Shown here one piece after another: positions 7,762 to 55,411 of a stretch of 64,000 bases of DNA. The position numbers were made by a program, and so were the translations under genes. Position 1 is the stretch's first letter. The number at the start of each line of letters is the position of its first letter. Source of the DNA: an uncultured Candidatus Saccharibacteria bacterium (GTDB lineage: Bacteria; Patescibacteriota; Doudnabacteria; UBA920; O2-02-FULL-48-8); assembly GCA_964605735.1 (NCBI GenBank), contig CAZSDS010000001.1:198771-262770 (forward strand). Direction: 5' to 3'. The notes under the pieces are model-generated. The model saw only the letters and a list, made by a program, of their open reading frames with translations, was not told the DNA's origin and ran no database searches.

Positions 7762-9254
7762 GCAATAAAGTAAGGGTTAGAATGGCGCCATCCCCAACAG
7801 GGTATCTTCACATAGGGAGTTTGCGCACAGCATTATACAATTACCTCTTTGCAAAAAAAGAAGGCGGCATTTTCATTTTGCGGATTGAGGATACTGACCG
7901 TGCCAGGCTCGTCCCGGATGCCACGGAGCAAATCGTTAAGACCCTGACTGAATTTAACATGGCACCTGATGAGGGTTATGTTTGGCAGGACGGCAAGCTT
8001 GTTGAGAAAGGGGATTTCGGCCCTTACATCCAATCACAGCGGCTCGATATTTATCACAAGCATGTTCAGATGCTGATTGAAAACAAAACTGCTTATTATT
8101 GTTTCTGCACCCCGGAACGTTTGGAAGAACTTCGCCAAAGCCAGCAGGCTCAAAAACTTCCTCCAAAATACGACAAGCACTGTCTTAAATTATCACCTGA
8201 AGAAATCCAGCAAAAATTAGGTAGTGGTGAAAAACATGTTATCAGGTTGAATGTTCCAGCTGACAGGATAATGAAGTTTGATGATTTGGTTTTTGGCCAC
8301 ATAGAAATTTCAACAAATGAAGTTGATGATCAGGTTTTGATCAAATCCGACGGCTACCCAACTTACCATTTTGCTGTAGTTGTGGATGACCACCACATGC
8401 AGATCACGCATGTGTTTAGAGGTGATGAATATATTAGTTCAACACCAAAGGACTTATTGCTTTATGAGGCTTTTGGTTGGGAGCTGCCAAGATTCGTTCA
8501 CCTACCTCCAATCATTTCCAAAGTCACTAAGAAAAAACTTTCCAAGCGCGAAGGTGATGTTTCCGTTCAGTCCTTTGTCGATAAAGGATATTTGCGAGAA
8601 GCAATCATTAATTTTTTGGCATTTTTGGGTTGGAACCCAAAGACTGAGCAGGAAAAATTTACTTTGGATGAATTGATCCAGGCATTCTCTTTAGACAAAC
8701 TTAACAAAGCCGGCGCTACTTTTGATTTGGAAAAACTGGATTGGTTTAACAGCCTATATATTCGTGAAATGCCTTTAGAGGATTTGTATACGCAAATAGA
8801 ACCGTTTTTGAAACAGGCAAACTTGCCTCTTGAAAATTTTCCAAAAGAATTTATTTTGGGAATTCTTAAGCTGGAGCGAGAAAGGCTTAAGAAGTTGTCA
8901 GAAATAGGGGAGAGGGTGCAATACTTCTTCACTGACCCGCAATACGAAGGGGATTTGCTGGTTTGGAAAAAATCCAACAGGGAAGCAACGCAAAGAAATC
9001 TGCAAACAATTTATTCTTACGTACAGGAATTGCCACAGGATAAGTTCAATAAGGAATTTTTGGAAACTGAAATTAAAAAATTTATTTCCGAAAATAATTT
9101 GAACACAGGAGAAGTGCTTTGGCCTCTTAGGGTTGCCCTATCAGGTCTTCCAGCCAGCCCTAGCCCATTTGAGATCATGGGCGCCTTTGGCACCCTCCCA
9201 AACGGCAAAGAAATTATTCTAAGACGCATAAATACGGCTATCGAAAAATTGTAA
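7758..9254 (+). CDS. gltX: Glutamyl-tRNA synthetase
   Basis: 498 aa class I aaRS with the HIGH-type motif PTGYLHIGSLRTALYNY and a KMSKS-type motif (KLSKR). Confidence 0.9.
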   Translation: MSNKVRVRMAPSPTGYLHIGSLRTALYNYLFAKKEGGIFILRIEDTDRARLVPDATEQIVKTLTEFNMAPDEGYVWQDGKLVEKGDFGPYIQSQRLDIYHKHVQMLIENKTAYYCFCTPERLEELRQSQQAQKLPPKYDKHCLKLSPEEIQQKLGSGEKHVIRLNVPADRIMKFDDLVFGHIEISTNEVDDQVLIKSDGYPTYHFAVVVDDHHMQITHVFRGDEYISSTPKDLLLYEAFGWELPRFVHLPPIISKVTKKKLSKREGDVSVQSFVDKGYLREAIINFLAFLGWNPKTEQEKFTLDELIQAFSLDKLNKAGATFDLEKLDWFNSLYIREMPLEDLYTQIEPFLKQANLPLENFPKEFILGILKLERERLKKLSEIGERVQYFFTDPQYEGDLLVWKKSNREATQRNLQTIYSYVQELPQDKFNKEFLETEIKKFISENNLNTGEVLWPLRVALSGLPASPSPFEIMGAFGTLPNGKEIILRRINTAIEKL

Positions 9255-9329
9255 GTTGTAACTTCCCGCTTATTATTTCGTTTTAGTATAAGACGATTGA
9301 TTCAGACGCAATTTATCCACTGAAAAGCC

Positions 9330-9358
9330 TTTACAAAATTTAGCTTTTGTGGTACAAT
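9330..9358 (+). promoter_or_regulatory. Sigma70-like promoter (TTTACA-17-TACAAT, with TG extended -10)
   Basis: The -35 tttaca is at 9330-9335 and the -10 tacaat at 9353-9358, with a 17-nt spacer and a TGg upstream of the -10. The predicted transcription start is about 9365, 2-3 nt before the ATG at 9368. Confidence 0.55.
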
Positions 9359-9367
9359 GATTACGTT

Positions 9368-10678
9368 ATGAATTCAAACAAGAAACCCAAACAGATAACC
9401 AAGCAGATAAAAAGAAGAATAACAATCACAACATTGCTGATAGCGGCAATGGTTTTTGGTTTTTATTCCGATGCCACGGTTTTAGGTCAGGCTGCCGATG
9501 ACTTGGTTAAGCAAAAAGAGGCCAAGCAAAGAGAACTGCAAGCCATTACCCAGCGTGTGGCTGAGCTTCAGACGCAAATCAACCAGCGAAAATCATTGTC
9601 GCGCACCTTAAACAATGAAATTGCGATTTTGAATTTGGAAATTGCCCAGACAGAGGCGCAAATTGAAGAAACACATGCGAGAATCGACACAACAAACTTG
9701 GAAATCGCGGATGTTACAAACAACATTGTGAAGACCGAACAAGAAATTGTTAAGAACAAGGAAGTTTTGAAAAAACTCATTGCACAGATCTATGATTTGG
9801 ATCAAATGTCGCCGCTGGAAATTGCTCTTGAGAACGATAATTTTTCTGAATTCTTAAACCAAATGCAATATACGACTAACGTCCAGGAGCGCAGCCAGGA
9901 GTCTTTGAACAACATCAGAAAACTGAAAGCTGAGCTGGAGTTGCGCAGCGCTGAATTGAAAAAGCATCGCGCGGAATTGGATGCCTTGAATGAACAGCTG
10001 GAATTGACCCAGGCTGGGCTTGATGGCCAGCGAGTAGCCAAACAGCAAATTTTGGACCAGACCAGAAGCCAGGAACGAGCTTACCAGGCATTGCTTAACG
10101 AATCAGCCAACCTTGAAGAGCAGATTGAAAAAGAAATCTATGATTTGGATGCTGAGATTAGCCGCAGGCTTGGAAACCGAAAATTACCTCCTAAGAAGGG
10201 ATTGTTTATGTGGCCAATGGAAGGCACTTTGACACAGGGCTACGGCAACACAGGATTTACTTCACTTGGGTATAATTACCATAACGGTCTGGATATTGCG
10301 GCACCGGCTGGCCGACAAATATTTGCTGCTTATGATGGCGTGGTTGAAGATACAGGCACCGGACAAGGCGCTTATGGCAACTGGGTTACTATCCGCCACA
10401 CTGTGACCGGCGGGCGCCAGCTGATTACTTTGTACGCGCACATGAGCTCGTTCAAGGTTAAAAGGGGTCAAACAGTGAAGATGGGTGATCTGGTTGGTTT
10501 TGAAGGCAATACCGGAAACACTACTCGCTTGCTTTATGGACCTCACCGCGGTTACCACTTGCACTTCACAGTATTTGACGCTGAAGGTTATGGCGTAAGC
10601 AAAGGAACTTTGGTCAAACAGTTTGGCACCTATTATGTCCCTTACGGCGCAACATATAACCCAATGGACTTCCTATAA
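9368..10678 (+). CDS. M23/LytM-family metallopeptidase with N-terminal signal anchor and long coiled coil (EnvC-like)
   Basis: The C-terminal LytM domain shows HNGLDIAAPAGRQIFAAYDGVV, GNWVTIRH and HLHF (the HxH zinc site). The N-terminal 250 aa are heptad-rich. The ORF-track start at 9347 lies inside the promoter, so the ATG at 9368 (MNSNKKPKQ) was chosen instead. Confidence 0.8.
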   Translation: MNSNKKPKQITKQIKRRITITTLLIAAMVFGFYSDATVLGQAADDLVKQKEAKQRELQAITQRVAELQTQINQRKSLSRTLNNEIAILNLEIAQTEAQIEETHARIDTTNLEIADVTNNIVKTEQEIVKNKEVLKKLIAQIYDLDQMSPLEIALENDNFSEFLNQMQYTTNVQERSQESLNNIRKLKAELELRSAELKKHRAELDALNEQLELTQAGLDGQRVAKQQILDQTRSQERAYQALLNESANLEEQIEKEIYDLDAEISRRLGNRKLPPKKGLFMWPMEGTLTQGYGNTGFTSLGYNYHNGLDIAAPAGRQIFAAYDGVVEDTGTGQGAYGNWVTIRHTVTGGRQLITLYAHMSSFKVKRGQTVKMGDLVGFEGNTGNTTRLLYGPHRGYHLHFTVFDAEGYGVSKGTLVKQFGTYYVPYGATYNPMDFL

Positions 10679-10694
10679 AAAAGAAATTTAAAGA

Positions 10695-10716
10695 CCCGCA
10701 ATCTGCGGGTTTTTTG
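10695..10716 (+). terminator. Intrinsic terminator
   Basis: Sequence CCCGCAatcTGCGGGttttttg, directly after the M23 peptidase stop. Confidence 0.6.
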
Positions 10717-10742
10717 TTTCAATAAAAAAACGCTCAGACGAA

Positions 10743-11270
10743 TTATTTCTGAGCGGGTGCCTTGGCGTGGTCAAAGCTTGAGACCCGAAAACCTTCAAAC
10801 CACTCCATGAGCCTGCTTCGGCAAGGCGGTAGAGGGTCGCAGGATATCGCATACAAGCCTAGAAGATAGACCCAACCCATACCTGTTAGTCTAAGATCGG
10901 GACCAAAACAGAGGCAGTATGCTAGCAAGATTAGTCGGATGGCACACATCACTGGATCAATTTTGGCTGGGTTTTCCAATCCTTTGCTAAGACGTCTGTA
11001 AGCGATGGTTTCCAGGGATTCGATCCTGTAGACTACGATCAGGCCGACTCCTGACAGCAGTACAGCCGCAGCCATCATTGTGACAACCCTGGGCACCATG
11101 TCTTCTAATCCGGCAAACAAGCTGAAGAAAAACCAGAGAGCTAAGCAGCAGGCCAGGAGGAAAATTTGGTACCCTAGCCAAATGCAACTTCTTCCCGTTA
11201 GTCGCTGAATGCAATGGCACAGGCTTTCGGTGCGGGAGATTAGCCAGGCGTCGATTTTTGCCAATATCAC
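10743..11270 (-). CDS. Hypothetical polytopic membrane protein (GC-rich ORFan)
   Basis: 175 aa with about 4 predicted TM helices. Local GC is clearly above the flanking DNA. A hairpin (cgctcaga...tctgagcg) with a U-run overlaps the stop. Confidence 0.4.
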   Translation of the reverse strand: MILAKIDAWLISRTESLCHCIQRLTGRSCIWLGYQIFLLACCLALWFFFSLFAGLEDMVPRVVTMMAAAVLLSGVGLIVVYRIESLETIAYRRLSKGLENPAKIDPVMCAIRLILLAYCLCFGPDLRLTGMGWVYLLGLYAISCDPLPPCRSRLMEWFEGFRVSSFDHAKAPAQK

Positions 11271-11685
11271 ACCTCCTTGGAATGATGACCAATCATATCA
11301 CGGATAGGTGCCGCTGACAAGAGGTCGAATTTACGAAAACTGGAACTGCCCTACCTTAAAAATGATTTTAGCGGGGGAGGGGTTCTTTAAATGAATTAAC
11401 TTGGGTTGCGAGTGAGGGGAATAAAATAAAAAAAATTTTTCAAAAAATGAGAACAATAATATTAAATAGGGAACATAGAAGTGAATGAATTTGATCCGGC
11501 CAATTTGCTTATATTAAAGGTTTTTAAACTAACTATGTGTCGCATAAGTACCATTGTGCGACAAGCTTCTGCTCCCAGAATATCCTTCATTCAAGCGTTT
11601 TATAACCTCACCATCCTACATACTACCGTTCTCATTCATGACCGTAGTACTACTACGCTCTAGTTGAGAAAAATAATCTACGTTC

Positions 11686-12270
11686 CTAATGTTTGTATTT
11701 ATATTTACCAGTTTTTATATACTCTTCCAATGCCGGCATTAATTTATTGATATCAAGGGTAGACATCCTCCTTATAAATTTTTCTACTTCTTCCTTATTA
11801 GGATGCCATTTCTTTAGTTGAGTCAAGCGATTGGTAACTGTCTTGCGATATTTAACGACCGTGTTTAGGTTAAGTTTAACAGGTAACTCTATCCCTTTTT
11901 TTGTAAGTCTGGTGTACAAGACATTTAACCGAATTTTTTCTTTTTGCACTTCTAGTATACTTAAGGAATAATCGATCTCGTGATTTGGAATAGTATCTAT
12001 TATTTTGGTATAACGTTGTTTAGTTTCGTGAGTCAAAAATTTTTTAATCCATACCTCAGGTCTTTTTGGATGGTAATTGTAATATCCGCAGATAAGTACA
12101 ATTTTACCAAGTTCTTCTGCTGCATGACAAGTAAGTACAAAAGAAATTCCTGCATCGTTTTTTTCCATCTTTTCAGCGCACACTAAAAGTCGTTCTGCAT
12201 TAATAATGCAATTAATAATACCTTTAGCTAGTTGCTCAACGCTGTAGTTCATAAGATAAGTGGAATACAT
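11686..12270 (-). CDS. Hypothetical all-alpha protein (AT-rich ORFan; possible Abi-like or accessory cargo, unverified)
   Basis: 194 aa on very AT-rich DNA. It is separated from the next gene by about 400 bp of noncoding sequence. No recognisable catalytic motif was found by eye. Confidence 0.4.
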   Translation of the reverse strand: MYSTYLMNYSVEQLAKGIINCIINAERLLVCAEKMEKNDAGISFVLTCHAAEELGKIVLICGYYNYHPKRPEVWIKKFLTHETKQRYTKIIDTIPNHEIDYSLSILEVQKEKIRLNVLYTRLTKKGIELPVKLNLNTVVKYRKTVTNRLTQLKKWHPNKEEVEKFIRRMSTLDINKLMPALEEYIKTGKYKYKH

Positions 12271-12299
12271 TATTAGTAATAAACAAAAAGAACTCAGTT

Positions 12300-13052
12300 T
12301 TAAGAGTTCTTTTTTACAACCATCATGACTGTGTCTGTTTTGTGATAGCCTTCGTGGGTTCCAGTTTCATATTCGTAAATTGAACTGATTACATTATCAT
12401 ATTTGAACTTGAAGTGTCTGCCGTTACGGGTGCCCGGATCGTTTGTGATAAATTCCTTGGTGGTGTCGTCATATCCAATGATCGGTAGCATGTGGGTTAG
12501 CGGGCCAGCGCCGGTGTAGTTTGGGTTGTCTAAAATTTGGCCATTTGTTGGAACAATCACTATATTCCCCTTCGCCAACTCTTCTTTAATATCTTCAGAA
12601 GTAATTTTGCGGCGAATTTCATAATTACTGTGCTTGTAATATTCTTCGAACAATTTTCCGGTATCAACAATTGACCGGTCCACATAACCTCCCAGGTGCT
12701 GAGCTTGGTATTCTGATACAGCAATAATTTCAGCTTCAGCTTGCTGCATGGTCATGGTTTTTCCTGTCAGCCACAAATGTGCCATCAAAATAGATGCTTC
12801 CTCGCATCCGTCCTGCTGTCTGGGATCAGACCATTTGGCGGTAGGCGCCTGCGGGATGAAGGGCACATCAATCAAGACCTTATCAGGGGTGATAACGTCT
12901 GGTTCGCGTTGTTCGTTTTCACGTTCAATAGCCTGCTGGTTTTGGTTTTGCTGGACACCTTGATAAAACTCGCGGGTGTCGTCACGAAAAAAAACATAAG
13001 CGACTCCCCCCGCCAATCCAATTATGACTATAAAAATTAGAAATTTTTTCAT
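12300..13052 (-). CDS. Membrane-anchored C39-like (papain-fold) peptidase domain protein (Peptidase_C39_2-like)
   Basis: 250 aa with an N-terminal TM anchor. The Peptidase_C39_2-like signature IPQAPTAKWSDPRQQDGCEEASILMAHLW is present (Cys nucleophile), with a downstream His-containing region. Confidence 0.55.
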   Translation of the reverse strand: MKKFLIFIVIIGLAGGVAYVFFRDDTREFYQGVQQNQNQQAIERENEQREPDVITPDKVLIDVPFIPQAPTAKWSDPRQQDGCEEASILMAHLWLTGKTMTMQQAEAEIIAVSEYQAQHLGGYVDRSIVDTGKLFEEYYKHSNYEIRRKITSEDIKEELAKGNIVIVPTNGQILDNPNYTGAGPLTHMLPIIGYDDTTKEFITNDPGTRNGRHFKFKYDNVISSIYEYETGTHEGYHKTDTVMMVVKKNS

Positions 13053-16543: not shown

Positions 16544-17269
16544 TTAGTTGCGCTGGGTCAATTTAATAAATACTTCTTCCAGGTTTTCTGACTGGTATTT
16601 TTGTTTCAATTCCTGGCTGGTGCCGGTTTCTTTGATCTCACCTTTATAAATTATGGCCAGCCTGTCAGACAAAAATTCAATTTCAAGCATGTTGTGGCTG
16701 GATAAAAGAACTGTCATACCCTCTCTAGCCAGCTGGCGGATGGTGTAGCGGACTTCCAGGGCATTGATTACGTCCAATCCGCTTGTCGGTTCGTCCATGA
16801 TGGCAAGTTTTGGTCTGGACATGACAGTGCGGGCGAGCAGGAGTTTTCTGGTCATTCCTTTGCTGTAGGTTTTGATTTTATCCTTGAGCCGGTCCTTCAA
16901 TCCAGTCATTTCTTTCCCGAATTCCAGAAACTGCTTTTGCTTGGCTGAATCATCTGTTTGGATTGCGGCCATAAATTGCAAATAACCCAAACCTGTCAGG
17001 TTTTTGTAAGCGCCAGCTTCTTCTGGCAGATAGCTGATGATTTCTCTGACTTTGTGGGCGTCTTTTTTTACGTCCAAACCAAAAATCTCCACGTCACCGC
17101 TCGTGATGGTTAATATTGTGGCTATCATTTTAAGCGTGGTGGATTTACCTGCTCCGTTAGGTCCAATCAAGCTGAAAATTTCATTTGGTAGGACGGTAAA
17201 ATTGACGTTATTGACTGCCTTAAAATTGCCGTAATTTTTTGTTAGGTTAGTGAGTTTGAGTGCTTCCAT
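16544..17269 (-). CDS. ABC transporter ATP-binding protein
   Basis: Walker A (GPNGAGKST), the signature region and Walker B (MDEPTSGLD) are present. The ATG at 17269 (MEALKLTNLTKNYG) was chosen over the longer ORF-track start because the latter overlaps tmk. Confidence 0.85.
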   Translation of the reverse strand: MEALKLTNLTKNYGNFKAVNNVNFTVLPNEIFSLIGPNGAGKSTTLKMIATILTITSGDVEIFGLDVKKDAHKVREIISYLPEEAGAYKNLTGLGYLQFMAAIQTDDSAKQKQFLEFGKEMTGLKDRLKDKIKTYSKGMTRKLLLARTVMSRPKLAIMDEPTSGLDVINALEVRYTIRQLAREGMTVLLSSHNMLEIEFLSDRLAIIYKGEIKETGTSQELKQKYQSENLEEVFIKLTQRN

Positions 17270-17373
17270 ATGGTTATTTGCAGAATAATATATTGGGCTA
17301 ATTTGGGCAACAGTTATTGTGATATAATACGGCGGGAACGGTTGCAAAGCATGATGAAAGGAGGCGAAATAAA

Positions 17374-18294
17374 ATGAAAACCGGATTTTACATGGCAATT
17401 GAAGGTCCTAGCCGGTCAGGCAAAACCACCCAGATCAAGAATCTGACCGAGTTCTGGCAGAAGAATTACCCAGAGCCTCTGGTGGTGACAAGGGAGCCTG
17501 GAGCTGGCCCGGGGCAATCGGAAATCGCGGACAAGATCCGTGACATTGTCCAGGGAGAGACTGCCCAGGGGTTCAAGGAAGAAATGAATCCGTGGGCTGA
17601 AGCCTGCTTGTACGCAGCGACCCGAGCCCAGACTCTGAGGCGGGTTGTTTTCCCTGCTCTGAGAAAGGGCCACAACGTGCTGGCTGACAGGTCTTTTGTC
17701 AGCAGCCTGGCATTCCAGGGCGGCGGCCGCGGGCTGGGGATTTCCCGAGTGATGGAGCTGAACCTGATTGCCATCACGGATTGGGACACTCCCGAGCGCC
17801 TCGGTGATTGGGGCAAAGTCGTAAAAGGCGAGATTGCCAAGTGCATCTACAATGAGCTTGTGGCCCAGAAGTTTCCTGGGGAAGAGCTTGAACGAGTGGC
17901 TTCCAACCTCCTCTACATGGCTTGCGAGGCTCAGACTACTGGGAATATAACTATCCCAGCCAACTCCCTACCATCAGAATGCAGCCAGGTGCGCTGCCAC
18001 ATGGCGCCGTTCTTGGTTCTGCATTTGGACATCAGTCCCGAGGAAATTTTCCGAAGGGAGCTGGATGTTAAAGGCGACAAGTTCGAAGGTCTGGACATTC
18101 AGTTCCACAGAAGGGTCCGCGACGCGTACTTTGAGTGCAAGGAGCGGGCACCGGTCATAAACTGGGTCACTGTCAACGGCGATCCAGAGCCAGGACTTAC
18201 GCCTGCACAGCTTGCCAATGAAGTTGAACTGAGAAAGGCAAGGGTTTTCGAAAAGATCATTAAGGGCATTAGCCCTTACCTCCCGCGTGCTTAG
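17374..18294 (+). CDS. tmk: Thymidylate (dTMP) kinase with an approximately 90-aa insertion in the LID region
   Basis: P-loop IEGPSRSGKTT, TREPG, DRSFVSSLAFQGG and a C-terminal FHRRVRDAY are present. A strong SD (GAAAGGAGG) precedes the start. At 306 aa it is about 100 aa longer than typical Tmk. The DNA is GC-rich. Confidence 0.8.
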   Translation: MKTGFYMAIEGPSRSGKTTQIKNLTEFWQKNYPEPLVVTREPGAGPGQSEIADKIRDIVQGETAQGFKEEMNPWAEACLYAATRAQTLRRVVFPALRKGHNVLADRSFVSSLAFQGGGRGLGISRVMELNLIAITDWDTPERLGDWGKVVKGEIAKCIYNELVAQKFPGEELERVASNLLYMACEAQTTGNITIPANSLPSECSQVRCHMAPFLVLHLDISPEEIFRRELDVKGDKFEGLDIQFHRRVRDAYFECKERAPVINWVTVNGDPEPGLTPAQLANEVELRKARVFEKIIKGISPYLPRA

Positions 18295-18325
18295 GTTTCG
18301 CGGGAGTTTTTATTTAATAAAAAAA

Positions 18326-18352
18326 CTGCGACGATAGTCTGTCGCAGTTTGG
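18326..18352. terminator. Bidirectional intrinsic terminator (tmk / thyX convergent)
   Basis: Sequence aaaaaaaCTGCGACgatagtctGTCGCAGtttggtcttttt. Confidence 0.6.
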
Positions 18353-18357
18353 TCTTT

Positions 18358-19977
18358 TTACTTTGCTGAATTTTCCTGAATTTGCTTCAGCCTCCGCTGA
18401 GTGGCAATTTCAGAATCCAGCCGGACCAGTTCTGGGTCTTCGCGGGTCTCAACGAAGCTCATGCCGCTGAAAATGGTCGGATGAACCTCGAGCCCAAGCT
18501 GATACATCTGTTTGGCGAGCTTCCTGTATCCTGGATGACCGTCCAGCCCGGATCTGAGTTCGATGAGGTGGTACGCTTCCCTCGCATTGGTGATGAAGCT
18601 ATAACGCATCTGGTGTCCCATCAGGGTTGCATACTGGGCCTCTTCCGTGAATCCTGCTTCATACAAGTGTGCGTACAGTGCTTCCGAGATGCGGTAGCAA
18701 CGCCTGTAGTCTTCCTCAAACCCAGCGTCAATGATTGTCTGCGGAACGTGGTAGCCGTAATGCGGCGTAAGCTGCTGCCATTCCAAAGCATCCACCATGC
18801 GGTGCCGCTGGAGGTCACGGAACGTGCCATAATCTCCAACAAAACTCCACTCATAGTGCGCTTTTTCAAAGGCGCGCCCAGGCCGGTGCCTTCGGTTCCC
18901 TCTCTCTCCGATGTACGCCATCAGGATGCGGCGCTTTTCGTCATCAGACAGATCTGCAACTGCATCCCTGACCTGATAGTGCGAGGCATGTACGCCAGGG
19001 GCACCAAACAGAATCTTCTCCACGATACTCAGTTCGTTTCTTGGCCAGTAATCCAGCAGCTCAACGCGAGGATCGAACTTCGAACCCAGTTCCCATTCAT
19101 CATCTTTCATGAGCTGCAGGTTTTTTGCAATGCGGGTCGCCTCCCTTCTGGTGGCCTTGATGTGGTTGATGGTTGCAATCCCGCGGTGCGGCAGGTCAGT
19201 GCGCTCGAAAAACGGTGCAGCCACCATCCTGACGTGCTTGAGGATTTGCTCCCCGAGCTCGTTGAACTCCTGCAGGTTCCAGGCCATAAGGTTCATGATC
19301 ATGCGGTCAATAGCCTGCGCACTCCCAACCAAACCAATATTGGAAAGAGTTGCTGCAGGAAGCACAGAACGAACAGCATCGCACGCCTTGGAACGGGTAG
19401 AGTTGAGCCAGGCAGTGCGATTCTCGGGGCTGTCGAGCGGGATCGCCTTGCGGTAGTGTTCGGTCAGCTCTCTGACCATCTTGGAGTACGTGTCGAACAG
19501 CAGAGTCATCTGCTGATCGTAGTGAATACGGAGGTTCTCAGTCAGGTTCTTTGGCGTGTAGAATAGGTAGCGGCCATCCGCGTCCTTTTGGTCAAAGAAA
19601 ATGTATCGGGTCGACTGTTCAAGATACGCCTGGAGCCTTCCCCACTCCACTGCTTTTGTGGCGAGGTTTGAGATCCTCACCAACCCAATGTGGATGCAAA
19701 TAAGCTGTGCCACGGAATCATCACCAAAACCGGTAACGATCTTGCTGGCCATGTCTGAGGCCTTTGACGGGTCTTGGGCAAACTCATCAGCAATGATCGC
19801 CCTGATGTCGTATTGGCTGCGGGACAGCCGGGCCATGGCAGCCGCGGAAAGAATTGGGCTGCCGCCCTTAAAGGCGTAGACAGAACTGTCCACGTCAGTG
19901 ACGATTTCGGAAAGGTACTTTCTCCCTTCATCGGTGATGCGCGGAATCGGTCCACTTTTGTCCAAATACGGGTTCAT
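18358..19977 (-). CDS. thyX: Flavin-dependent thymidylate synthase-like protein, long form (Thy1/ThyX family), with atypical substrate-motif residues
   Basis: 539 aa. It contains RHR (LQRHRMVDALEWQQLTPHYGY) and the C-terminal ThyX block NAREAYHLIELRSGLDGHPGYRKLAKQMY, which aligns by eye (from memory) with T. maritima [25 protein letters not shown]. The canonical ...LSGRY residues read ...LTPHY here. The DNA is GC-rich. Confidence 0.7.
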   Translation of the reverse strand: MNPYLDKSGPIPRITDEGRKYLSEIVTDVDSSVYAFKGGSPILSAAAMARLSRSQYDIRAIIADEFAQDPSKASDMASKIVTGFGDDSVAQLICIHIGLVRISNLATKAVEWGRLQAYLEQSTRYIFFDQKDADGRYLFYTPKNLTENLRIHYDQQMTLLFDTYSKMVRELTEHYRKAIPLDSPENRTAWLNSTRSKACDAVRSVLPAATLSNIGLVGSAQAIDRMIMNLMAWNLQEFNELGEQILKHVRMVAAPFFERTDLPHRGIATINHIKATRREATRIAKNLQLMKDDEWELGSKFDPRVELLDYWPRNELSIVEKILFGAPGVHASHYQVRDAVADLSDDEKRRILMAYIGERGNRRHRPGRAFEKAHYEWSFVGDYGTFRDLQRHRMVDALEWQQLTPHYGYHVPQTIIDAGFEEDYRRCYRISEALYAHLYEAGFTEEAQYATLMGHQMRYSFITNAREAYHLIELRSGLDGHPGYRKLAKQMYQLGLEVHPTIFSGMSFVETREDPELVRLDSEIATQRRLKQIQENSAK

Positions 19978-20135
19978 AAGTCAAATCCTCCATTAAGCGT
20001 TGCCAAATGTGCTTGGCTTATTATATTTGTTGCGCCTTTACGTTGCAACTTACCTGAAAAAGTGATCTTGCCCAAAAGCCAGGGTTTTACTAAACTATCA
20101 GCAGTTCTTAAGCACAAATCACAACCGGAGGATGT

Positions 20136-21209
20136 ATGTGGCCTAGAGGCAACGTGCTCGTGGATTCCGATATCCGCAAGCTTATGAGCGGACCACGTCC
20201 GAGTATCGCAACAAAAGGGACTGAGATCCCTCCAAGCTCACTGGACATGGCGGTCGGCGAGCGCGTCTGGCAAGTCTCCGGTCTGCCCACAGTGGCTGGC
20301 GGGTTTGATTTCAAGACGTTTATCGACGAATACGCCATAAACGAAATTCCGCACACTAAGCGCCCTTGGGCGTTCACACCAGGCAGCATCTACTTTGCAG
20401 AACTCGAGCCGAAATTCCGCCTGCCTGAATGCGTCGGTGGCGTTACCAACGCCAAAAGTTCTGCAGGGAGAATTGACCTGTATTGCCCCACAGTAGCGAA
20501 CGGGTGCGACCAATACAACGTGGTCCCCGCGGGTTACAAAGGTAAGCTGTACATGTTAATGGTCCCGCAAAGCTTTTCTTTCCGAGGGGTGCGGGCTCAC
20601 GAATTTGTCCAGATTCGATTGAACGAGGGCGAGCGGCAGTATCTTCAGGGATTCGAACTTCAAATGCTGCACGACCAGTACAAGCTGGTTTTAAACCGCA
20701 AACCGGTCCTCACGCAATCAGGGCTAATGCTGCATTTGGATCTGCGAAACAACCTGGTCGCAACCAAAAACGGCAAACCAATCGACCTCAACAGGCGGGA
20801 TATAAACCCGAGGTACTACTTTAGACGCAAGTTGAAGGACGCACAAGGAAGGCTTTTCCTTGAGCCCGGGGAGTTTTTGCTCGCCAACACAATGGAATAC
20901 CTGCGCATCCCTGACAAGGTGTGCGCAGAGATGGAGGCTCATGACGAAAAACAAGGCGAGATGCGCACGCATTATGCCGGGTTTTTCGATCCTAACTTTG
21001 AAGGCAACATTGTTTGTGAAATCAGGAATATTGGCACTGCGCCGATTATCCTGTCTCACGGACAGCCGATTGCCTTGGTTAGATACGAAGCTCTCCGTTC
21101 AAGACCAGTGGCGCTCTACGGCCAAAAGAAATCAGGTGCCAAGGTGTCAAATTACCAAGGCCAGCGGGGAATCCGCCTGGCGAAGTATTTTGCCCCCTGG
21201 GCTGCCTGA
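20136..21209 (+). CDS. dcd: dCTP deaminase-like protein, long (~360 aa) form (dUTPase-superfamily fold)
   Basis: 357 aa. A dUTPase/Dcd-like motif HYAGFFDPNFEGNIVCEIRNIG is present. The SD GGAGG lies 5 nt upstream. The DNA is GC-rich. Confidence 0.6.
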   Translation: MWPRGNVLVDSDIRKLMSGPRPSIATKGTEIPPSSLDMAVGERVWQVSGLPTVAGGFDFKTFIDEYAINEIPHTKRPWAFTPGSIYFAELEPKFRLPECVGGVTNAKSSAGRIDLYCPTVANGCDQYNVVPAGYKGKLYMLMVPQSFSFRGVRAHEFVQIRLNEGERQYLQGFELQMLHDQYKLVLNRKPVLTQSGLMLHLDLRNNLVATKNGKPIDLNRRDINPRYYFRRKLKDAQGRLFLEPGEFLLANTMEYLRIPDKVCAEMEAHDEKQGEMRTHYAGFFDPNFEGNIVCEIRNIGTAPIILSHGQPIALVRYEALRSRPVALYGQKKSGAKVSNYQGQRGIRLAKYFAPWAA

Positions 21210-21216
21210 AACGACA

Positions 21217-21254
21217 CTGCTCTGTCAGAAATGACAGAGCAGATTTTTATTATT
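21217..21254 (+). terminator. Intrinsic terminator after dcd
   Basis: Sequence CTGCTCTGTCAgaaaTGACAGAGCAGatttttattattt. Confidence 0.6.
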
Positions 21255-31689: not shown

Positions 31690-32121
31690 TTACTCTCCGG
31701 TGGATCCGAAACCGCCGCGTGCAGTTTCAAGTAACTGATCTACCTCTTCCCATTCAACTTGCTGAACTGGCAGAAAAATTCCCTGGGCAATTCGCTCGCC
31801 TTTTTTCACCTCAACGGGCAGGTCTGTAAAGTTGTACACCATAATCAAAGCCTCGTCATCCGGTCCGGCATAGTCAGGATCAAGTATACCCACGCTATGA
31901 GGGAACATCAGCCCCTTCTTCTTTGGTGTACTGCTGCGTGAAAAAATTGCCAAAAAATATCCTTCCGGTGGTTCGAAATACAATCCTGTATGAAGCAATT
32001 TAATTTCCTTTGGCTTAATAACGGCGTCTTCATTAGATGCAATATCAAAAGCCGCAGATTTTTTCGTGCCATATCCTGGCAACGGGACACTCGGGTCGAT
32101 TCTTCTAATTCTTACTTTCAT
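31690..32121 (-). CDS. dut: dUTP diphosphatase (dUTPase)
   Basis: 143 aa with the motifs GILDPDYAG and RGGFGSTG. Confidence 0.8.
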   Translation of the reverse strand: MKVRIRRIDPSVPLPGYGTKKSAAFDIASNEDAVIKPKEIKLLHTGLYFEPPEGYFLAIFSRSSTPKKKGLMFPHSVGILDPDYAGPDDEALIMVYNFTDLPVEVKKGERIAQGIFLPVQQVEWEEVDQLLETARGGFGSTGE

Positions 32122-49468: not shown

Positions 49469-50470
49469 ATGAACGTAAGCTCGCCTGAAACGAAAAGCAA
49501 GATCACGGAACTTGGATTGAGTATTTCACAATACTCCAAACCCTTGCAAATTACACCCAAAACAATCCGTGACCGCCTCACAGAGCAACTCGTTCTTGAA
49601 TCGGATCTCGACGATCCAAAAAAGATTGCCAGTGTTCTTGGTCCTCTCCTGCACGAACAGAGAAGGATGAAGAGTGTGGAGGACTCCAGATCCGTTCGCG
49701 AGGTTGTCATCGGCTGGCTCAAGAAACTCCAAGAAAAGGGCTACAGTGATTGGGGTTCGAGAATCATCAATTTCGAGGAGATCACTGTGCCACTGGACGC
49801 GCCTGTTCTGCCTGAGCCGCACTACGAACCCGAAACCGTGTTCACGAGGTTCAAATCTGAGAACGGACACGCTCCGGAGCCGCGGTTCTCATGGTCAACG
49901 TGGTGGGACAGCAAGAAGGATGTTCTGGATATCCCAGGCACAGCCCTGCTTGTGATCGCACTGCTCCTGCTCATTGCAGCAAGACTCTGGTGGCCAGAGT
50001 GGCTGTTCATCACACTCGCGATTTCAGCCGTTCTAGCGCTTGCCTATTTCGTCGCAAGATCCACTGTAGTAAAGTCTATTGCTATGGCTGGACTCTTCAT
50101 CGTGGTTCTGGTGGGTGTCCTTTTGCTGATCCAGAAGTCCAGAGGGGACTCTGTGGTGGTAAGACACGGCGACACAACCTTGCCATCTGAAGCGAATCAG
50201 GCGGCAACCAAGGCAGACATCAACCAGGTCACGACCGCTCTAGGTTCGCAGATCGAAAGCGTGAAAACCGAAGTCAGTGCGCTGAACAGCAAGGTTGAGG
50301 CCGTGGACAAACGCGTCACGGCAGTGGAGGCGAAAATCGCCAAACCTGCGCCACGCCGAACAGCTACTCCGTCAGCCAAACCAACCACCAAAGGAGGAGT
50401 CATCATCTACGACAAGACAGTCCGCGGCAAAACGCGGGTTATCCGCACGGAGACGATGACAAAAAAATAG
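49469..50470 (+). CDS. Hypothetical membrane protein (GC-rich; cytoplasmic N-domain, 3 TM, C-terminal coiled coil and basic tail)
   Basis: 333 aa. GC is clearly above the local background. It is followed by two stem-loops and a T-run. Confidence 0.45.
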   Translation: MNVSSPETKSKITELGLSISQYSKPLQITPKTIRDRLTEQLVLESDLDDPKKIASVLGPLLHEQRRMKSVEDSRSVREVVIGWLKKLQEKGYSDWGSRIINFEEITVPLDAPVLPEPHYEPETVFTRFKSENGHAPEPRFSWSTWWDSKKDVLDIPGTALLVIALLLLIAARLWWPEWLFITLAISAVLALAYFVARSTVVKSIAMAGLFIVVLVGVLLLIQKSRGDSVVVRHGDTTLPSEANQAATKADINQVTTALGSQIESVKTEVSALNSKVEAVDKRVTAVEAKIAKPAPRRTATPSAKPTTKGGVIIYDKTVRGKTRVIRTETMTKK

Positions 50471-54781: not shown

Positions 54782-55411
54782 CTAATTGGCGCTGGTTGTA
54801 GACTCCTGAACGGAGGTCCTTGAAGAGTTCTGGTGGTACTGAATCCAGCGTTGACGGGCAATAAAGTAGGTTTTCTTCTTGCCGTCGCCGTAGTCGATGT
54901 GGCAGAAGACAGCCACGCGAACTCCGGGGATGTTGGCTTTGATGTGCGACTTGGCTGTGAAGGCAATCCGGACAATGTCTTCGAACGAAAGATTGCCCGC
55001 CTCCCGAGCCATTGCGCATGGCGCATGAATATACAGCGCGACCGTTGAGATTCCCTTGTGGTCGAACAGATACTTCATGTCGAACATCAGGTATTCACCG
55101 TAGTACGGAGTCGCGTAGTTCGCGGGCGAGAGCATCGGGATCCTGAGAGCTCCTCCGAGCGGTGACATCGGAGTTACTCGTTTCTGACAGCCAGAATTCA
55201 AGATGTCAGCGACCTTGTAGTCATACATCTCGGGGAACTGGTCAGGGTCTCCGCAGGAAACAATGATCAGCCCGGTCTTAGGGTCAAGCTTGTGCCCATC
55301 GATGTTATCGAGGACTCTCGCCGCCTTGTAGCTCGCAATCAACTCGAGGTCACGGTCGGTAAGTGCACCCAATTGGTCCTCCTGTTCGACTCTAACAAAA
55401 AAGCAAAACAC
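54782..55411 (-). CDS. Hypothetical protein (GC-rich ORFan with conserved-looking Cys/His positions)
   Basis: About 209 aa with an uncertain start (the GTG at 55411, or an internal Met). Candidate catalytic Cys/His residues lie in IIVSCGDPD, LYIHAPCAMA and AVFCHIDYGDG. GC is elevated. Confidence 0.35.
   Translation of the reverse strand: MFCFFVRVEQEDQLGALTDRDLELIASYKAARVLDNIDGHKLDPKTGLIIVSCGDPDQFPEMYDYKVADILNSGCQKRVTPMSPLGGALRIPMLSPANYATPYYGEYLMFDMKYLFDHKGISTVALYIHAPCAMAREAGNLSFEDIVRIAFTAKSHIKANIPGVRVAVFCHIDYGDGKKKTYFIARQRWIQYHQNSSRTSVQESTTSAN

What the first reader, a model, noticed from the sequence alone, without database searches (positions are those of the whole stretch)
17374..21209. 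GC-rich thymidylate island: tmk with a LID insertion, a long ThyX with altered substrate-motif residues, and a long-form dCTP deaminase
Three consecutive genes stand out by composition, at about 55% GC against roughly 40% background, and two of them have strong SDs. Together with dut at 31.7 kb they form a complete dCTP to dUTP to dUMP to dTMP to dTDP route. Each enzyme is atypical. Tmk has a ~90-aa insertion where the LID normally sits. ThyX is 539 aa against the usual ~230; it keeps the RHR and C-terminal NAR...LR...QxY blocks, but the downstream Ser...Arg-Tyr region reads LTPHY instead of LSGRY, so both the Ser and the Arg implicated in dUMP binding (role assigned from memory) are replaced. 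Dcd is the rare ~360-aa form. Substituted substrate-contacting residues together with foreign composition raise two possibilities: a horizontally acquired module, perhaps from a high-GC partner organism, or an enzyme working on a modified pyrimidine (compare phage thymidine-hypermodification clusters that pair ThyA/ThyX-like enzymes with nucleotide kinases). Both are inferences.
Basis: partly seen in the sequence, partly recalled or inferred. Interest (0 to 1): 0.6.

Follow-up and report, generated by a model that had tools for sequence, protein, structure and literature searches.

The report
Ordinary thymidylate genes, tandem-domain ThyX
These three genes are the normal thymine-nucleotide pathway of a tiny uncultured (Doudnabacteria/CPR) bacterium; the "missing" catalytic residues of its double-length thymidylate synthase sit, fully conserved, in the protein's other half, so there is no sign of an exotic DNA base.

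Summary
The three ORFs are real: tmk, thyX and dcd, with dut at 31.7 kb. The description is overstated in places. GC is 53.2% against 44.4%, not 55 against 40. All three genes carry a GGAGG Shine-Dalgarno sequence. The 73-aa Tmk insertion lies before strand β4, not in the LID.

The 539-aa ThyX is a tandem duplication of the Thy1 domain and belongs to a very large family. That family holds over 8,000 proteins in at least 596 species, across CPR, Acidimicrobiia, Thermoleophilia and Dehalococcoidia. 44 of its 120 closest relatives are Tmk-ThyX fusions.

The C-terminal half keeps RHR and the dUMP-activating Arg, and its S-x-R-Y loop is degenerate across the family (TPHY here). The N-terminal half has lost RHR (WGR here) but keeps an invariant S122-T123-R124-Y125. 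In solved ThyX tetramers these two residue sets come from different subunits. I infer a pseudo-heterotetramer with composite active sites acting on dUMP. Nothing supports a modified pyrimidine.

The GC excess is real and is shared by syntenic relatives, so recent import is unlikely. thyX is generally GC3-richer than its neighbours in CPR. Gene identities disagree with flank identities, which hints at old replacements within CPR. The Tmk insertion is rare (three 90% clusters) and its role is unknown.

The parts
17374..18294 (+). tmk, dTMP kinase, 306 aa. GGAGG lies 9 nt upstream of the ATG.
   Evidence: PF02223 at E 2e-23, and TIGR00041 at 98.5 bits against a cut-off of 83. All 25 invariant residues of a 23-sequence Tmk alignment are kept: the P-loop G11/G16-K17-T18, D105-R106, Q115-G116 and R228. 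The AF2 model has pLDDT 88.6, and Foldseek matches the Tmk core at TMt up to 0.91. Shine-Dalgarno sequence.
17779..17997 (+). Lineage-specific 73-aa insertion in Tmk (D136-C208). It lies between the helix after the YQGGGRG motif and strand β4, not in the LID. It is predicted to contain two helices.
   Evidence: PDB Tmk chains align to residues 4-128 and 210-260 only. The insertion is absent from the Tmk modules of CPR Tmk-ThyX fusions and from about 115 other Tmk hits. It occurs in only three 90%-identity clusters of a 5.8-billion-protein database: P0181, P0182 and P0183. AF2 predicts helices 153-163 and 174-189 at pLDDT about 91-93. Translation of the coordinates was checked.
18280..18350 (.). 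Back-to-back intrinsic terminators between the convergent tmk and thyX genes.
   Evidence: A stem CTCCCGCG...CGCGGGAG followed by TTTTT sits at 18280-18311. The hairpin at 18323-18350 is followed by a T-run on both strands.
19090..19977 (-). thyX N-terminal Thy1 domain (residues 1-296). Its own RHR and ELR sites are degenerate (W112-G113-R114). It retains the trans-acting loop S122-T123-R124-Y125, and also E120 and R203.
   Evidence: On its own it scores 46.1 bits on PF02511 (gathering threshold 24.8), with residues 45-253 matching profile positions 13-189. It aligns to Mtb ThyX 62-228 and to T. maritima ThyX H79-Y91. These residues are invariant or nearly so (one exception at S122) in 202 sequences, and 90-96% conserved in 147 distant cluster representatives.
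19603..19614 (-). Codons for S122-T123-R124-Y125, the conserved S-x-R-Y loop of the N-half.
   Evidence: The translation was checked. Conservation. The equivalent residues S88/R90/Y91 in T. maritima ThyX are critical for catalysis (PMC8316439, PMC11940539). In Mtb ThyX, Ser105/Arg107/Tyr108 come from a different subunit than Arg95/Arg199 (PMC6514825).
18358..19089 (-). thyX C-terminal Thy1 domain (residues 297-539). It keeps R391-H392-R393, N464/R466/H470, R475 (the T. maritima R174 equivalent) and H481. Its S-x-R-Y counterpart reads T404-P405-H406-Y407.
   Evidence: On its own it scores 56.3 bits on PF02511, matching profile positions 2-191 of 191. hhalign to T. maritima ThyX covers 34-204. 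Conservation. Motif translations.
18757..18768 (-).
   Evidence: Position 406 is R in 91, D in 24 and H in 17 of 182 close CPR relatives, and R in only 29% of 147 distant representatives. Position 407 is L, H or Y. The [ST]PRYG form of this loop persists even in family members that have lost all catalytic residues.
19978..20135 (.). Divergent spacer between thyX and dcd, at about 43-45% GC. It holds one sigma-70-like promoter match on each strand and a GGAGG for each gene.
20136..21209 (+). dcd, the long two-domain dCTP deaminase, 357 aa. The N-domain keeps K107-S108-S109-x-G111-R112. The C-domain keeps the catalytic-type Glu E295 and AGFFD. A terminator follows at 21217-21242.
   Evidence: Pfam finds DCD_N plus DCD_C. 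TIGR02274 scores 93.2 against a cut-off of 92.8. NF005734 scores 202 against a cut-off of 283. The match to PDB 2r9q is full length. These residues are invariant in 64 long Dcd sequences. Terminator.
31690..32121 (-). dut, dUTPase, 143 aa. It lies between the genes for ribosomal protein L1 and release factor 2. In a more distant Doudnabacteria genome this is where dcd and thyX sit too.
   Evidence: PF00692 at E 8e-22. Synteny in L003 and L004.

Best explanation
This is the housekeeping de novo thymidylate module of a Candidatus Doudnabacteria (CPR/Patescibacteria) genome. The route is Dcd (dCTP to dUTP), Dut (dUTP to dUMP, 10 kb away), ThyX (dUMP to dTMP) and Tmk (dTMP to dTDP). The three clustered genes are separate transcription units, each with its own GGAGG and terminator.

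ThyX is the tandem-domain form typical of CPR: two Thy1 domains in one chain that have degenerated in complementary ways.
- The C-half supplies what one subunit supplies in canonical homotetramers: RHR, the NAR block and the dUMP-activating Arg (R475).
- The N-half supplies what the neighbouring subunit supplies: the S-x-R-Y loop (S122, R124, Y125), E120 and the R203 phosphate-binding Arg.

A dimer of the 539-aa protein would therefore mimic a ThyX tetramer with two live and two dead active sites, acting on ordinary dUMP. The TPHY that looked like a substituted substrate motif is the relic loop facing a dead site.

Shown here:
- the domain duplication;
- the residue mapping;
- the family-wide conservation pattern.

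Inferred, not shown:
- the quaternary arrangement;
- the number of live sites;
- the catalytic activity.

The long Dcd shows the same kind of complementary split: KSSxGR in the N-domain and the catalytic Glu in the C-domain. Tmk keeps every family-invariant residue and an intact core. It carries a rare 73-aa helical insertion away from the LID, with unknown role.

The elevated GC has two parts. One is a general property of thyX in CPR. The other is a lineage feature shared with syntenic relatives.
For: Family assignments:
-.

Tandem duplication:
- Each ThyX half separately exceeds the Pfam Thy1 threshold.
- The AF2 model (pLDDT 82.8, pTM 0.76) shows the same order of secondary-structure elements twice, and it matches solved ThyX chains over one half, at TMt 0.6-0.69.

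Residue mapping:
- The N-half sequence EWGRLQAYLEQSTRY aligns to Mtb RHRHFSYSQLSQRY and to T. maritima HRIASYNELSGRY.
- The T. maritima sequence I used was verified as identical to PDB 1kq4/1o26.

Conservation:
- N-half S122, T123, R124, Y125, R114, E120 and R203, and C-half R391, H392, R393, R475, N464 and R466, are invariant or nearly so in 202 sequences from CPR and Actinomycetota/Chloroflexota.
- They are 90-96% conserved in 147 cluster representatives reaching down to about 30% identity, while C-half positions 404-407 and N-half positions 112-113 vary freely.
- The N-half S-x-R-Y and the C-half RHR plus R475 are kept together in 128 representatives and lost together in 13, with only 7 mixed (Fisher p 5e-13, not corrected for phylogeny). 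The C-half [ST]PRYG survives in the dead proteins.

Literature:
- In Mtb ThyX, dUMP is held by Arg95 and Arg199 of subunit A and by Arg87, Ser105, Arg107 and the Tyr108 lid of subunit C (PMC6514825).
- S88, R90 and Y91 are critical, and R174 activates dUMP (PMC8316439, PMC11940539).

Link to dTMP:
- 44 of the 120 closest homologues are Tmk-ThyX fusions.
- The window protein matches 102 of 110 positions that are at least 95% conserved in the family.

Synteny and composition:
-.
Against: - No member of this long family has a solved structure. Sequence searches of the PDB with the protein find nothing at E <= 0.01, and a profile search gives only marginal hits at E about 0.015.
- I found no paper reporting activity for a CPR-type long ThyX.
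- I had no model coordinates, so I could not measure whether the N-half loop reaches the C-half site in cis or in trans.
- TIGR02170, the ThyX equivalog model, scores only 39.6 against a cut-off of 87.9.
- Position 100 is Glu in 200 relatives and Val here and in the sister genome.
- The co-loss statistic is not phylogenetically corrected, and any inactivated enzyme would lose all its catalytic residues together.
- The cause of the extra GC3, +0.14 to +0.17, is not established.
Confidence: 0.75

Rival explanations
1. The three genes are a recently imported island from a high-GC donor, for example a host or partner organism.
For: - The island is the GC maximum of the window, at 53.2% against 44.4%, and GC3 has z 2.6-3.2.
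- The GC steps coincide with the gene borders.
- The long ThyX family also occurs in high-GC Acidimicrobiia and Thermoleophilia.
Against: - The same slot and gene order occur in GCA_019662105.1, in ERZ27297427 and in a JGI contig. Flanking genes in the two genomes with DNA are 63-80% identical to the window's, so the cluster predates their divergence.
- The closest homologues of all three proteins are from CPR or Doudnabacteria.
- Actinomycetota ThyX proteins are only 36-40% identical.
- There is no tRNA, integrase or flanking repeat.
- The intergenic spacers have background GC.
Confidence: 0.07
2. The GC excess reflects old or repeated replacement of individual thymidylate genes among CPR lineages, from members with about 50% GC, possibly helped by recombination-associated GC bias. 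It would not be a single block transfer.
For: Identities compared with the flanks:
- Flanks: window-L001 68-80% (one partial gene at 59.5%), window-L005 63-69%.
- thyX: 77% with L001, 46% with L005.
- dcd: 41% with L001, 60% with L005.
- tmk: 52% with L001, 32% with L005.

Other points:
- The dcd of L001 is closest to P0124, not to the window's dcd.
- The trio is GC-elevated in the window, in L001, in L005 and in L007, but not in L003.
- Doudnabacteria assemblies whose names carry GC values of 41-52% exist (the reading of those name numbers as GC is mine, not tested).
Against: - The window/L001 ThyX sits on a long branch, at most 52% identical to anything else, so rate acceleration could mimic replacement.
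- thyX is GC3-richer than its neighbours in 47 of 53 CPR loci, so part of the signal is gene-intrinsic.
- No proper phylogeny or reconciliation was done.
Confidence: 0.35
3. The ThyX-like protein, together with the unusual Tmk, makes or handles a modified pyrimidine nucleotide, as in phage thymidine-hypermodification clusters.
For: - The C-half reads TPHY instead of S-x-R-Y.
- Tmk has a rare 73-aa insertion.
- TIGR02170 is below its cut-off.
- E100 is replaced by Val.
Against: - The full catalytic set is present once the N-half is counted.
- The TPHY-type loop varies freely across a family of thousands of proteins.
- Fusion of ThyX to a canonical dTMP kinase is common.
- The neighbours are an ABC transporter, a class-V aminotransferase and a Dus enzyme. 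No glycosyl- or pyrophosphoryl-transferases or hydroxymethylases are nearby.
- The phage collection gives only three hits, at 23-24% identity.
- The Tmk substrate-site residues are intact, and the insertion is distal to the LID.
Confidence: 0.03
4. The N-half is only a scaffold or regulatory domain, and catalysis uses C-half residues alone, including T404/H406/Y407.
For: - The C-half carries most of the recognisable ThyX motifs and has the higher Pfam score.
- About half of close relatives have [ST]-P-R-Y in the C-half.
Against: - C-half positions 406 and 407 are not conserved: R in 29%, and L/H/Y.
- The loop persists in catalytically dead relatives.
- The N-half STRY, E120 and R203 are invariant or nearly so across phyla, and they are lost together with RHR and R475.
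Confidence: 0.08

Closest known systems
Canonical homotetrameric flavin-dependent thymidylate synthase ThyX (T. maritima TM0449, PDB 1O26; M. tuberculosis, PDB 2AF6/3GWC)
   Same: It has the Thy1 fold, here present twice. It has RHR, the NAR block, the dUMP-activating Arg and the S-x-R-Y loop. The active site is built from more than one Thy1 unit.
   Different: One 539-aa chain carries two non-identical Thy1 domains, and each has lost the motifs that the other keeps. No single domain has the full RHR...S-x-R-Y motif. I predict two live sites per pseudo-tetramer rather than four. Sequence similarity to solved ThyX chains is marginal.
Tmk-ThyX fusion proteins of Saccharibacteria and other CPR (for example P0057, P0063, P0077; 760-806 aa)
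   Same: They have the same tandem ThyX module, at 46-51% identity, with the same conserved residues. Tmk is linked to ThyX.
   Different: Here Tmk is a separate, convergently transcribed gene, and it carries a 73-aa insertion that the fused Tmk modules lack. Some fusions have catalytically dead ThyX modules. The window protein does not.
Long (about 530 aa) chlamydial ThyX. Its length is from my memory. PMC3498832 reports only that C. trachomatis thyX was cloned and its protein used in an NADPH-oxidation assay.
   Same: It is in the same length class, and it is described as too divergent to include in ThyX phylogenies (PMC6171736).
   Different: I could not obtain a chlamydial sequence, so I did not test whether it belongs to this family or shows the same split of motifs.
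Long two-domain dCTP deaminase (Pfam DCD_N + DCD_C; NCBIfam NF005734/PRK07559; PDB 2R9Q)
   Same: It aligns over its full length at E 1e-38. KSSxGR is in the N-domain, and GFFDP...E is in the C-domain.
   Different: The score is below the NF005734 equivalog cut-off, 202 against 283. The closest relatives are from CPR, at 38-62% identity. The Glu-equivalent position of the N-domain is Leu here.
Monomeric herpesvirus dUTPase, a duplicated dUTPase domain whose catalytic motifs are split between its two halves (from memory, used only as an analogy)
   Same: The principle is the same: an oligomeric enzyme with inter-subunit active sites becomes a fused pseudo-oligomer after duplication and complementary loss of motifs.
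   Different: It has an unrelated fold and a different reaction, and it forms one site per chain.

Membership tests
ThyX / flavin-dependent thymidylate synthase (PF02511, TIGR02170) | Thy1 domain fold | tested here: met
   PF02511 scores 98.3 bits for the whole protein. The N-half alone scores 46.1 and the C-half alone 56.3, against a gathering threshold of 24.8. Foldseek matches Mtb and T. maritima ThyX at E 3e-6 and TMt 0.6-0.69.
ThyX / flavin-dependent thymidylate synthase (PF02511, TIGR02170) | A complete ThyX motif, RHRxxS...SxRY, within one domain | tested here: not met
   The C-half has RHR but TPHY. The N-half has WGR but STRY. The motif is complete only when the two halves are combined.
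ThyX / flavin-dependent thymidylate synthase (PF02511, TIGR02170) | dUMP-contacting arginines equivalent to T. maritima R78, R90, R147 and R174 | tested here: met
   The equivalents are R391 and R475 in the C-half and R124 and R203 in the N-half. All are invariant in 202 sequences.
ThyX / flavin-dependent thymidylate synthase (PF02511, TIGR02170) | Score above the NCBIfam equivalog cut-off | tested here: not met
   TIGR02170 scores 39.6 bits against a cut-off of 87.9. That model was built on single-domain ThyX.
ThyX / flavin-dependent thymidylate synthase (PF02511, TIGR02170) | FAD- and NADPH-dependent conversion of dUMP to dTMP, and a tetrameric or pseudo-tetrameric assembly | not testable with these tools
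   This needs enzymology or structure work. The indirect support is that 44 of 120 homologues are fused to a dTMP kinase.
dTMP kinase (PF02223, TIGR00041) | P-loop, DR motif, YQG motif and LID Arg, with a score above the equivalog cut-off | tested here: met
   TIGR00041 scores 98.5 against 83.25. All 25 invariant columns of the 23-sequence alignment are kept. The core fold matches at TMt up to 0.91.
Long-form dCTP deaminase (DCD_N + DCD_C; NF005734) | Two-domain architecture with KSSxGR in the N-domain and the catalytic Glu in the C-domain | tested here: met
   TIGR02274 scores 93.2 against 92.8. NF005734 scores 202, below its cut-off of 283.
Phage-type thymidine hypermodification cluster | A TS-like hydroxymethylase with altered substrate-site residues, together with a 5-hmdU-type kinase and transferase or lyase genes, in a phage or prophage context | tested here: not met
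   The catalytic set is canonical once both halves are counted. The neighbours are housekeeping genes. The phage collection gives three hits at 23-24% identity.
Recently acquired genomic island | Atypical composition | tested here: met
   GC is higher by 8.8 points and GC3 by 0.14-0.17. About +0.05 in GC3 is the norm for thyX in CPR.
Recently acquired genomic island | Absence from related genomes at the same site, and mobility marks such as a tRNA, an integrase or direct repeats | tested here: not met
   The cluster is present at the syntenic site in three other genomes. There is no tRNA or repeat.
Recently acquired genomic island | A gene phylogeny that is incongruent with the genome phylogeny | tested here: inconclusive
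   Pairwise identities of thyX, dcd and tmk disagree with those of the flanking genes. A long branch is an alternative explanation. No tree was built.

The most novel reading that the evidence does not exclude
The long ThyX of CPR, Acidimicrobiia and Thermoleophilia would be an obligate pseudo-heterotetramer. Each live active site would be composite, with RHR, the NAR block and R475 from a C-half and S-x-R-Y, E120 and R203 from an N-half. That halves the number of catalytic sites relative to canonical ThyX.

This architecture has no solved structure and, as far as I could find, no published description. It covers at least 504 clusters at 50% identity.

A more speculative extension concerns the rare helical insertion in this lineage's free-standing Tmk. 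It could be a docking module that replaces the covalent Tmk-ThyX fusion seen in other CPR, and so channel dTMP.
Probability: 0.45. Interest if true: 0.5.

Novelty: new member of a known kind. Interest (0 to 1): 0.3.

Why it matters
- For annotation, the apparent loss of the ThyX Ser/Arg should not be read as a new substrate specificity. Single-domain ThyX models (TIGR02170) under-score this very large tandem family.
- For enzymology, ThyX is an antibacterial target. A natural fused form with complementary half-sites would be a ready-made system for asking which subunit contributes what. It could also test half-of-sites behaviour.
- For CPR biology, the cluster shows that these reduced genomes keep a complete de novo dTMP route.
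- thyX genes are systematically GC3-richer than their neighbours in CPR. That points to an unexplained compositional or transfer bias at thymidylate genes.

Tried and rejected
- Model coordinates are not exposed, so no distances between the N-half loop and the C-half site could be measured.
- I tried to link the protein to the experimentally studied C. trachomatis ThyX and failed. No paper in the library gives its sequence or motif. Ten low-identity cluster representatives of 524-538 aa turned out to be Ferrimicrobium or unnamed, not Chlamydia.
- hhalign of the N-half against the C-half, and of each half against a single T. maritima sequence, gave only weak scores. The residue mapping rests on these together with the HMM alignment to PDB chains and the Pfam domain hits.
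- Literature searches for ThyX in CPR, Patescibacteria or Saccharibacteria found nothing relevant.
- A search for flanking repeats and tRNAs as island marks found nothing.
- I rejected the idea that the GC excess is purely intrinsic to these genes. L003/L004 show no excess, and only 2 of 53 CPR loci reach the window's GC3 excess.
- I rejected a phage origin.

Full report
**What is there**

The three ORFs exist exactly as reported.
- tmk: 17374-18294 (+), 306 aa.
- thyX: 18358-19977 (-), 539 aa.
- dcd: 20136-21209 (+), 357 aa.

Pfam and NCBIfam identify them as follows.
- dTMP kinase: TIGR00041 at 98.5 bits, above its cut-off.
- A protein with two Thy1 stretches: PF02511 at 98 bits. The single-domain equivalog model TIGR02170 scores only 39.6, below its cut-off of 87.9.
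- A two-domain dCTP deaminase: DCD_N plus DCD_C.

The dUTPase at 31690-32121 (-) is confirmed. The dCTP to dUTP to dUMP to dTMP to dTDP route is therefore encoded.

The exact ThyX protein is on record on a 797-kb contig. Its closest named relative, at 77% identity, is from a Candidatus Doudnabacteria MAG. The window is a CPR/Patescibacteria genome.

**Anatomy of the locus**

- tmk and thyX converge on back-to-back terminators at 18280-18350.
- thyX and dcd diverge from a 158-bp spacer that has one promoter-like match on each strand.
- dcd ends at a terminator at 21217-21242.
- All three genes, not two, have a GGAGG 4-9 nt upstream of the start codon.

They are three separate transcription units, not an operon.

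**Composition**

- The island has 53.2% GC and the rest of the window 44.4%, not 55 against 40. It is still the maximum of the window.
- GC3 is 0.62-0.65 against 0.476 +/- 0.054 for 36 other ORFs, z 2.6-3.2.
- The GC steps coincide with the coding regions, and the spacers are at background GC.
- Two unrelated ORFs elsewhere in the window are equally GC3-rich.

**ThyX**

Most are 526-550 aa and 46-51% identical. 44 of the best 120 are Tmk-ThyX fusions of 760-806 aa.

A scan of species-representative genomes found at least 596 species with the same protein. They include Saccharibacteria and Parcubacteria. At 36-40% identity they also include Acidimicrobiia, Thermoleophilia and Dehalococcoidia.

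An exhaustive HMMER search counted 504 clusters (at 50% identity) with E <= 1e-30. The length of this protein is therefore typical of its clade.

Each half of the protein separately passes the Pfam Thy1 threshold. The N-half scores 46.1 bits and the C-half 56.3 bits. The AF2 model (pLDDT 82.8, pTM 0.76) repeats the same order of secondary-structure elements twice. It matches solved ThyX chains over one half.

**The 'substituted' motif**

That loop is not conserved in the family.
- Position 404 is T or S in most close relatives.
- Position 406 is R in about half of close relatives, with H in 9%. It is R in only 29% of 147 distant representatives.
- Position 407 is Y, L or H.

The N-terminal domain behaves in the opposite way. 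It contains EWGRLxxYLEQSTRY. This aligns with the RHRHFSYSQLSQRY of Mtb ThyX and with the HRIASYNELSGRY of T. maritima ThyX. I verified the T. maritima sequence against PDB 1kq4/1o26.

Conservation in the 202 sequences examined, from both CPR and Actinomycetota/Chloroflexota:
- N-half: S122, T123, R124, Y125, R114, E120 and R203 (the equivalent of T. maritima R147) are invariant or nearly so.
- C-half: R391-H392-R393, N464, R466, R475 (the equivalent of T. maritima R174) and H481 are invariant or nearly so.
- N-half counterparts of the R and H of RHR (W112, G113) vary among distant representatives.
- N-half counterpart of R174: no Arg (L or M at position 230).
- C-half counterpart of R147: no Arg (Q448-Y449).

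The two domains have therefore degenerated in complementary ways.

**Why this matters mechanistically**

- In Mtb ThyX, dUMP is held by Arg95 (the first R of RHR) and Arg199 of subunit A. It is also held by Arg87, Ser105, Arg107 and the Tyr108 lid of subunit C (PMC6514825).
- In the PBCV-1 enzyme, Ser88 and Gln89 come from one monomer, and Gln75 and Arg182 from the other (PMC3498832).
- S88, R90 and Y91 are critical for catalysis, and R174 activates dUMP (PMC8316439, PMC11940539).

The C-half of the long protein keeps exactly the 'subunit A' set. The N-half keeps the 'subunit C' set.

I infer that a dimer of the 539-aa chain forms a pseudo-tetramer with two composite live sites and two dead sites. 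The TPHY loop would face a dead site.

Supporting evidence comes from 148 long sequences (the window protein plus 147 cluster representatives).
- The N-half S-x-R-Y and the C-half RHR plus R475 are retained together in 128 and lost together in 13.
- They are mixed in only 7 (Fisher p 5e-13, not phylogenetically corrected).
- The proteins that lost them, mostly Tmk-ThyX fusions, still keep the C-half [ST]PRYG.

The window protein itself matches 102 of 110 positions that are at least 95% conserved in the family. The one radical difference is Val at position 100, where 200 relatives have Glu. Its sister genome shares that change.

**Tmk**

- Solved Tmk chains align to residues 4-128 and 210-260.
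- The extra 73 residues (D136-C208) lie between the helix that follows YQGGGRG and strand β4 (PFLVLHLD). They are therefore not in the LID. The LID follows β4 and keeps R228.
- All 25 invariant columns of a 23-sequence Tmk alignment are kept.
- The AF2 model is confident (pLDDT 88.6), with an intact core at TMt up to 0.91.
- The insertion is predicted to contain two helices, 153-163 and 174-189, at pLDDT about 92.
- The insertion is rare. Only three clusters in a 5.8-billion-protein database have it, namely this protein's own cluster, P0182 and the Doudnabacteria relative.
- It is absent from the Tmk modules of the CPR fusions and from the Tmk proteins of two other syntenic relatives, which are 221 and 238 aa.

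Its role is unknown.

**Dcd**

- It aligns over its full length with the 370-aa PDB entry 2r9q at E 1e-38.
- In 64 long Dcd sequences, the N-domain K107-S108-S109-x-G111-R112 is invariant or nearly so (S109 is T in 5).
- The C-domain AGFFD and E295 are invariant or nearly so.
- The C-domain counterpart of KSS and the N-domain counterpart of the Glu are not conserved.

This is a second fused pseudo-oligomer with complementary halves in the same cluster.

Its nearest relatives are Doudnabacteria and other Patescibacteria, at 38-62% identity. Planctomycetota and Alphaproteobacteria follow at about 30-33%.

**Origin**

The slot Aminotran_5 - dcd - thyX - (small ORF) - tmk ... Dus - C39_2 recurs in three other genomes: GCA_019662105.1 (L001), ERZ27297427 (L005) and a JGI contig.

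A more distant Doudnabacteria genome, GCA_001779955.1, has a different layout. There L1 - dcd - AAA_18 kinase - thyX - dut - RF2 form one co-directional cluster. That is where the window still keeps its dut.

| Locus | GC of the thymidylate genes | GC of the flanks |
|---|---|---|
| L001 | 48% | about 40% |
| L005 | 50-52% | 42-49% |
| L007 | 54-57% | 48-52% |
| L003 | no excess | - |

Across CPR loci:
- thyX is GC-richer than its flanks by about 2.5 points on average over the 75 scanned loci, and by more in most of the CPR loci.
- It is GC3-richer than flanking ORFs in 47 of 53 loci, with a mean of +0.052.
- Only 2 loci reach the window's +0.17.

Pairwise identities are not congruent with the flanks.

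| Gene | Window vs L001 | Window vs L005 |
|---|---|---|
| Flanking genes | 68-80% (one partial gene 59.5%) | 63-69% |
| thyX | 77% | 46% |
| dcd | 41% | 60% |
| tmk | 52% | 32% |

The window/L001 ThyX sits on a long branch.

My conclusions on origin:
- A recent block import from a high-GC partner is unlikely. The cluster is syntenic in relatives, its homologues are from CPR, and there are no mobility marks.
- Older or repeated gene replacement among CPR lineages is possible but not demonstrated.
- Part of the GC signal is a general, unexplained property of thyX in CPR.

**Modified-pyrimidine hypothesis**

Nothing supports it.
- The catalytic inventory for dUMP is complete.
- Fusion to a dTMP kinase is common.
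- The neighbours are housekeeping genes.
- The phage collection contains only three distant matches, at 23-24% identity.

**Verdict**

This is an ordinary thymidylate-synthesis cluster of a CPR bacterium. The individual oddities are lineage-typical (the tandem ThyX and the long Dcd), or rare but apparently benign (the Tmk insertion).

The most interesting residue of the finding is the complementary half-site architecture of the tandem ThyX family. It is well supported by sequence evidence. It is untested structurally, and I could not find it described in the literature available to me.

Noticed in passing
Proteins P0342, P0349, P0369, P0372, P0377, P0388, P0402, P0406, P0415, P0439, P0441, P0443 (one search hits; not in the window): Some Tmk-ThyX fusion proteins of 680-800 aa have lost the catalytic residues of the ThyX module: the N-half S-x-R-Y and, in most of them, RHR and the R475 equivalent (P0388 and P0441 keep RHR; P0439 keeps R475). 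They still keep the C-half [ST]PRYG loop. These look like catalytically dead ThyX modules attached to a kinase, possibly pseudoenzymes or regulatory domains.
   Followed up: partly
window 19678-19680 (-), ThyX residue 100: Position 100 is Glu in all 200 other family members examined. It is Val in the window protein and in its 77%-identical sister P0002, and an Arg follows it. This is the only radical departure from family-invariant positions.
   Followed up: partly
window 20136-21209 (+); the 64-sequence Dcd alignment: The long dCTP deaminase is also a duplicated domain with complementary motif retention. KSSxGR is invariant only in the N-domain. The catalytic-type Glu (E295) and AGFFD are invariant only in the C-domain. 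The cluster therefore holds two fused pseudo-oligomers.
   Followed up: partly
Loci L008-L067 (CPR genomes): thyX is GC3-richer than its flanking ORFs in 47 of 53 CPR loci, with a mean of +0.052. One locus, L066, exceeds its flanks by +0.36 in GC3. The cause is unknown.
   Followed up: partly
window 49469-50470 (+) and 54782-55411 (-): Two further ORFs have GC3 of 0.60 and 0.68, as high as the thymidylate trio. Neither has a significant Pfam match; the first has only a weak coiled-coil hit.
   Followed up: no
window 11686-12270 (-): This ORF is AT-rich (32.5% GC, GC3 0.29) and matches HEPN_AbiV. It sits beside the C39_2 gene, and neither L001 nor L005 shows a HEPN_AbiV-type gene next to theirs. 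It is probably an inserted defence gene.
   Followed up: no
L003/L004 (GCA_001779955.1), 8001-12537: In a more distant Doudnabacteria genome, dcd, a 179-183-aa AAA_18-type kinase, a 546-aa thyX and dut form one co-directional cluster between the genes for ribosomal protein L1 and release factor 2. No PF02223 Tmk is present there. That thyX is only 33% identical to the window's. The GyrB gene on the same locus carries an intein.
   Followed up: no
PP885688.1 (Tunturiibacter phage Tunturi_5), 46618-47964: A jumbo phage encodes a 'thymidylate synthase' that matches query residues 72-502 at 24% identity. It is apparently also a two-domain ThyX.
   Followed up: no
L001 3426-3647; the JGI 3300071358 contig: A conserved small ORF of 73-75 aa lies between thyX and tmk in two relatives. 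It is absent from the window, where the spacer holds only the two terminators.
   Followed up: no
window 16544-17398 (-): The mechanical ORF for the ABC ATPase starts at a TTG that overlaps the tmk start codon. The gene call in the identical Logan contig is 241 aa, starting at the ATG at 17269. That leaves a divergent spacer of about 104 bp upstream of tmk.
   Followed up: partly
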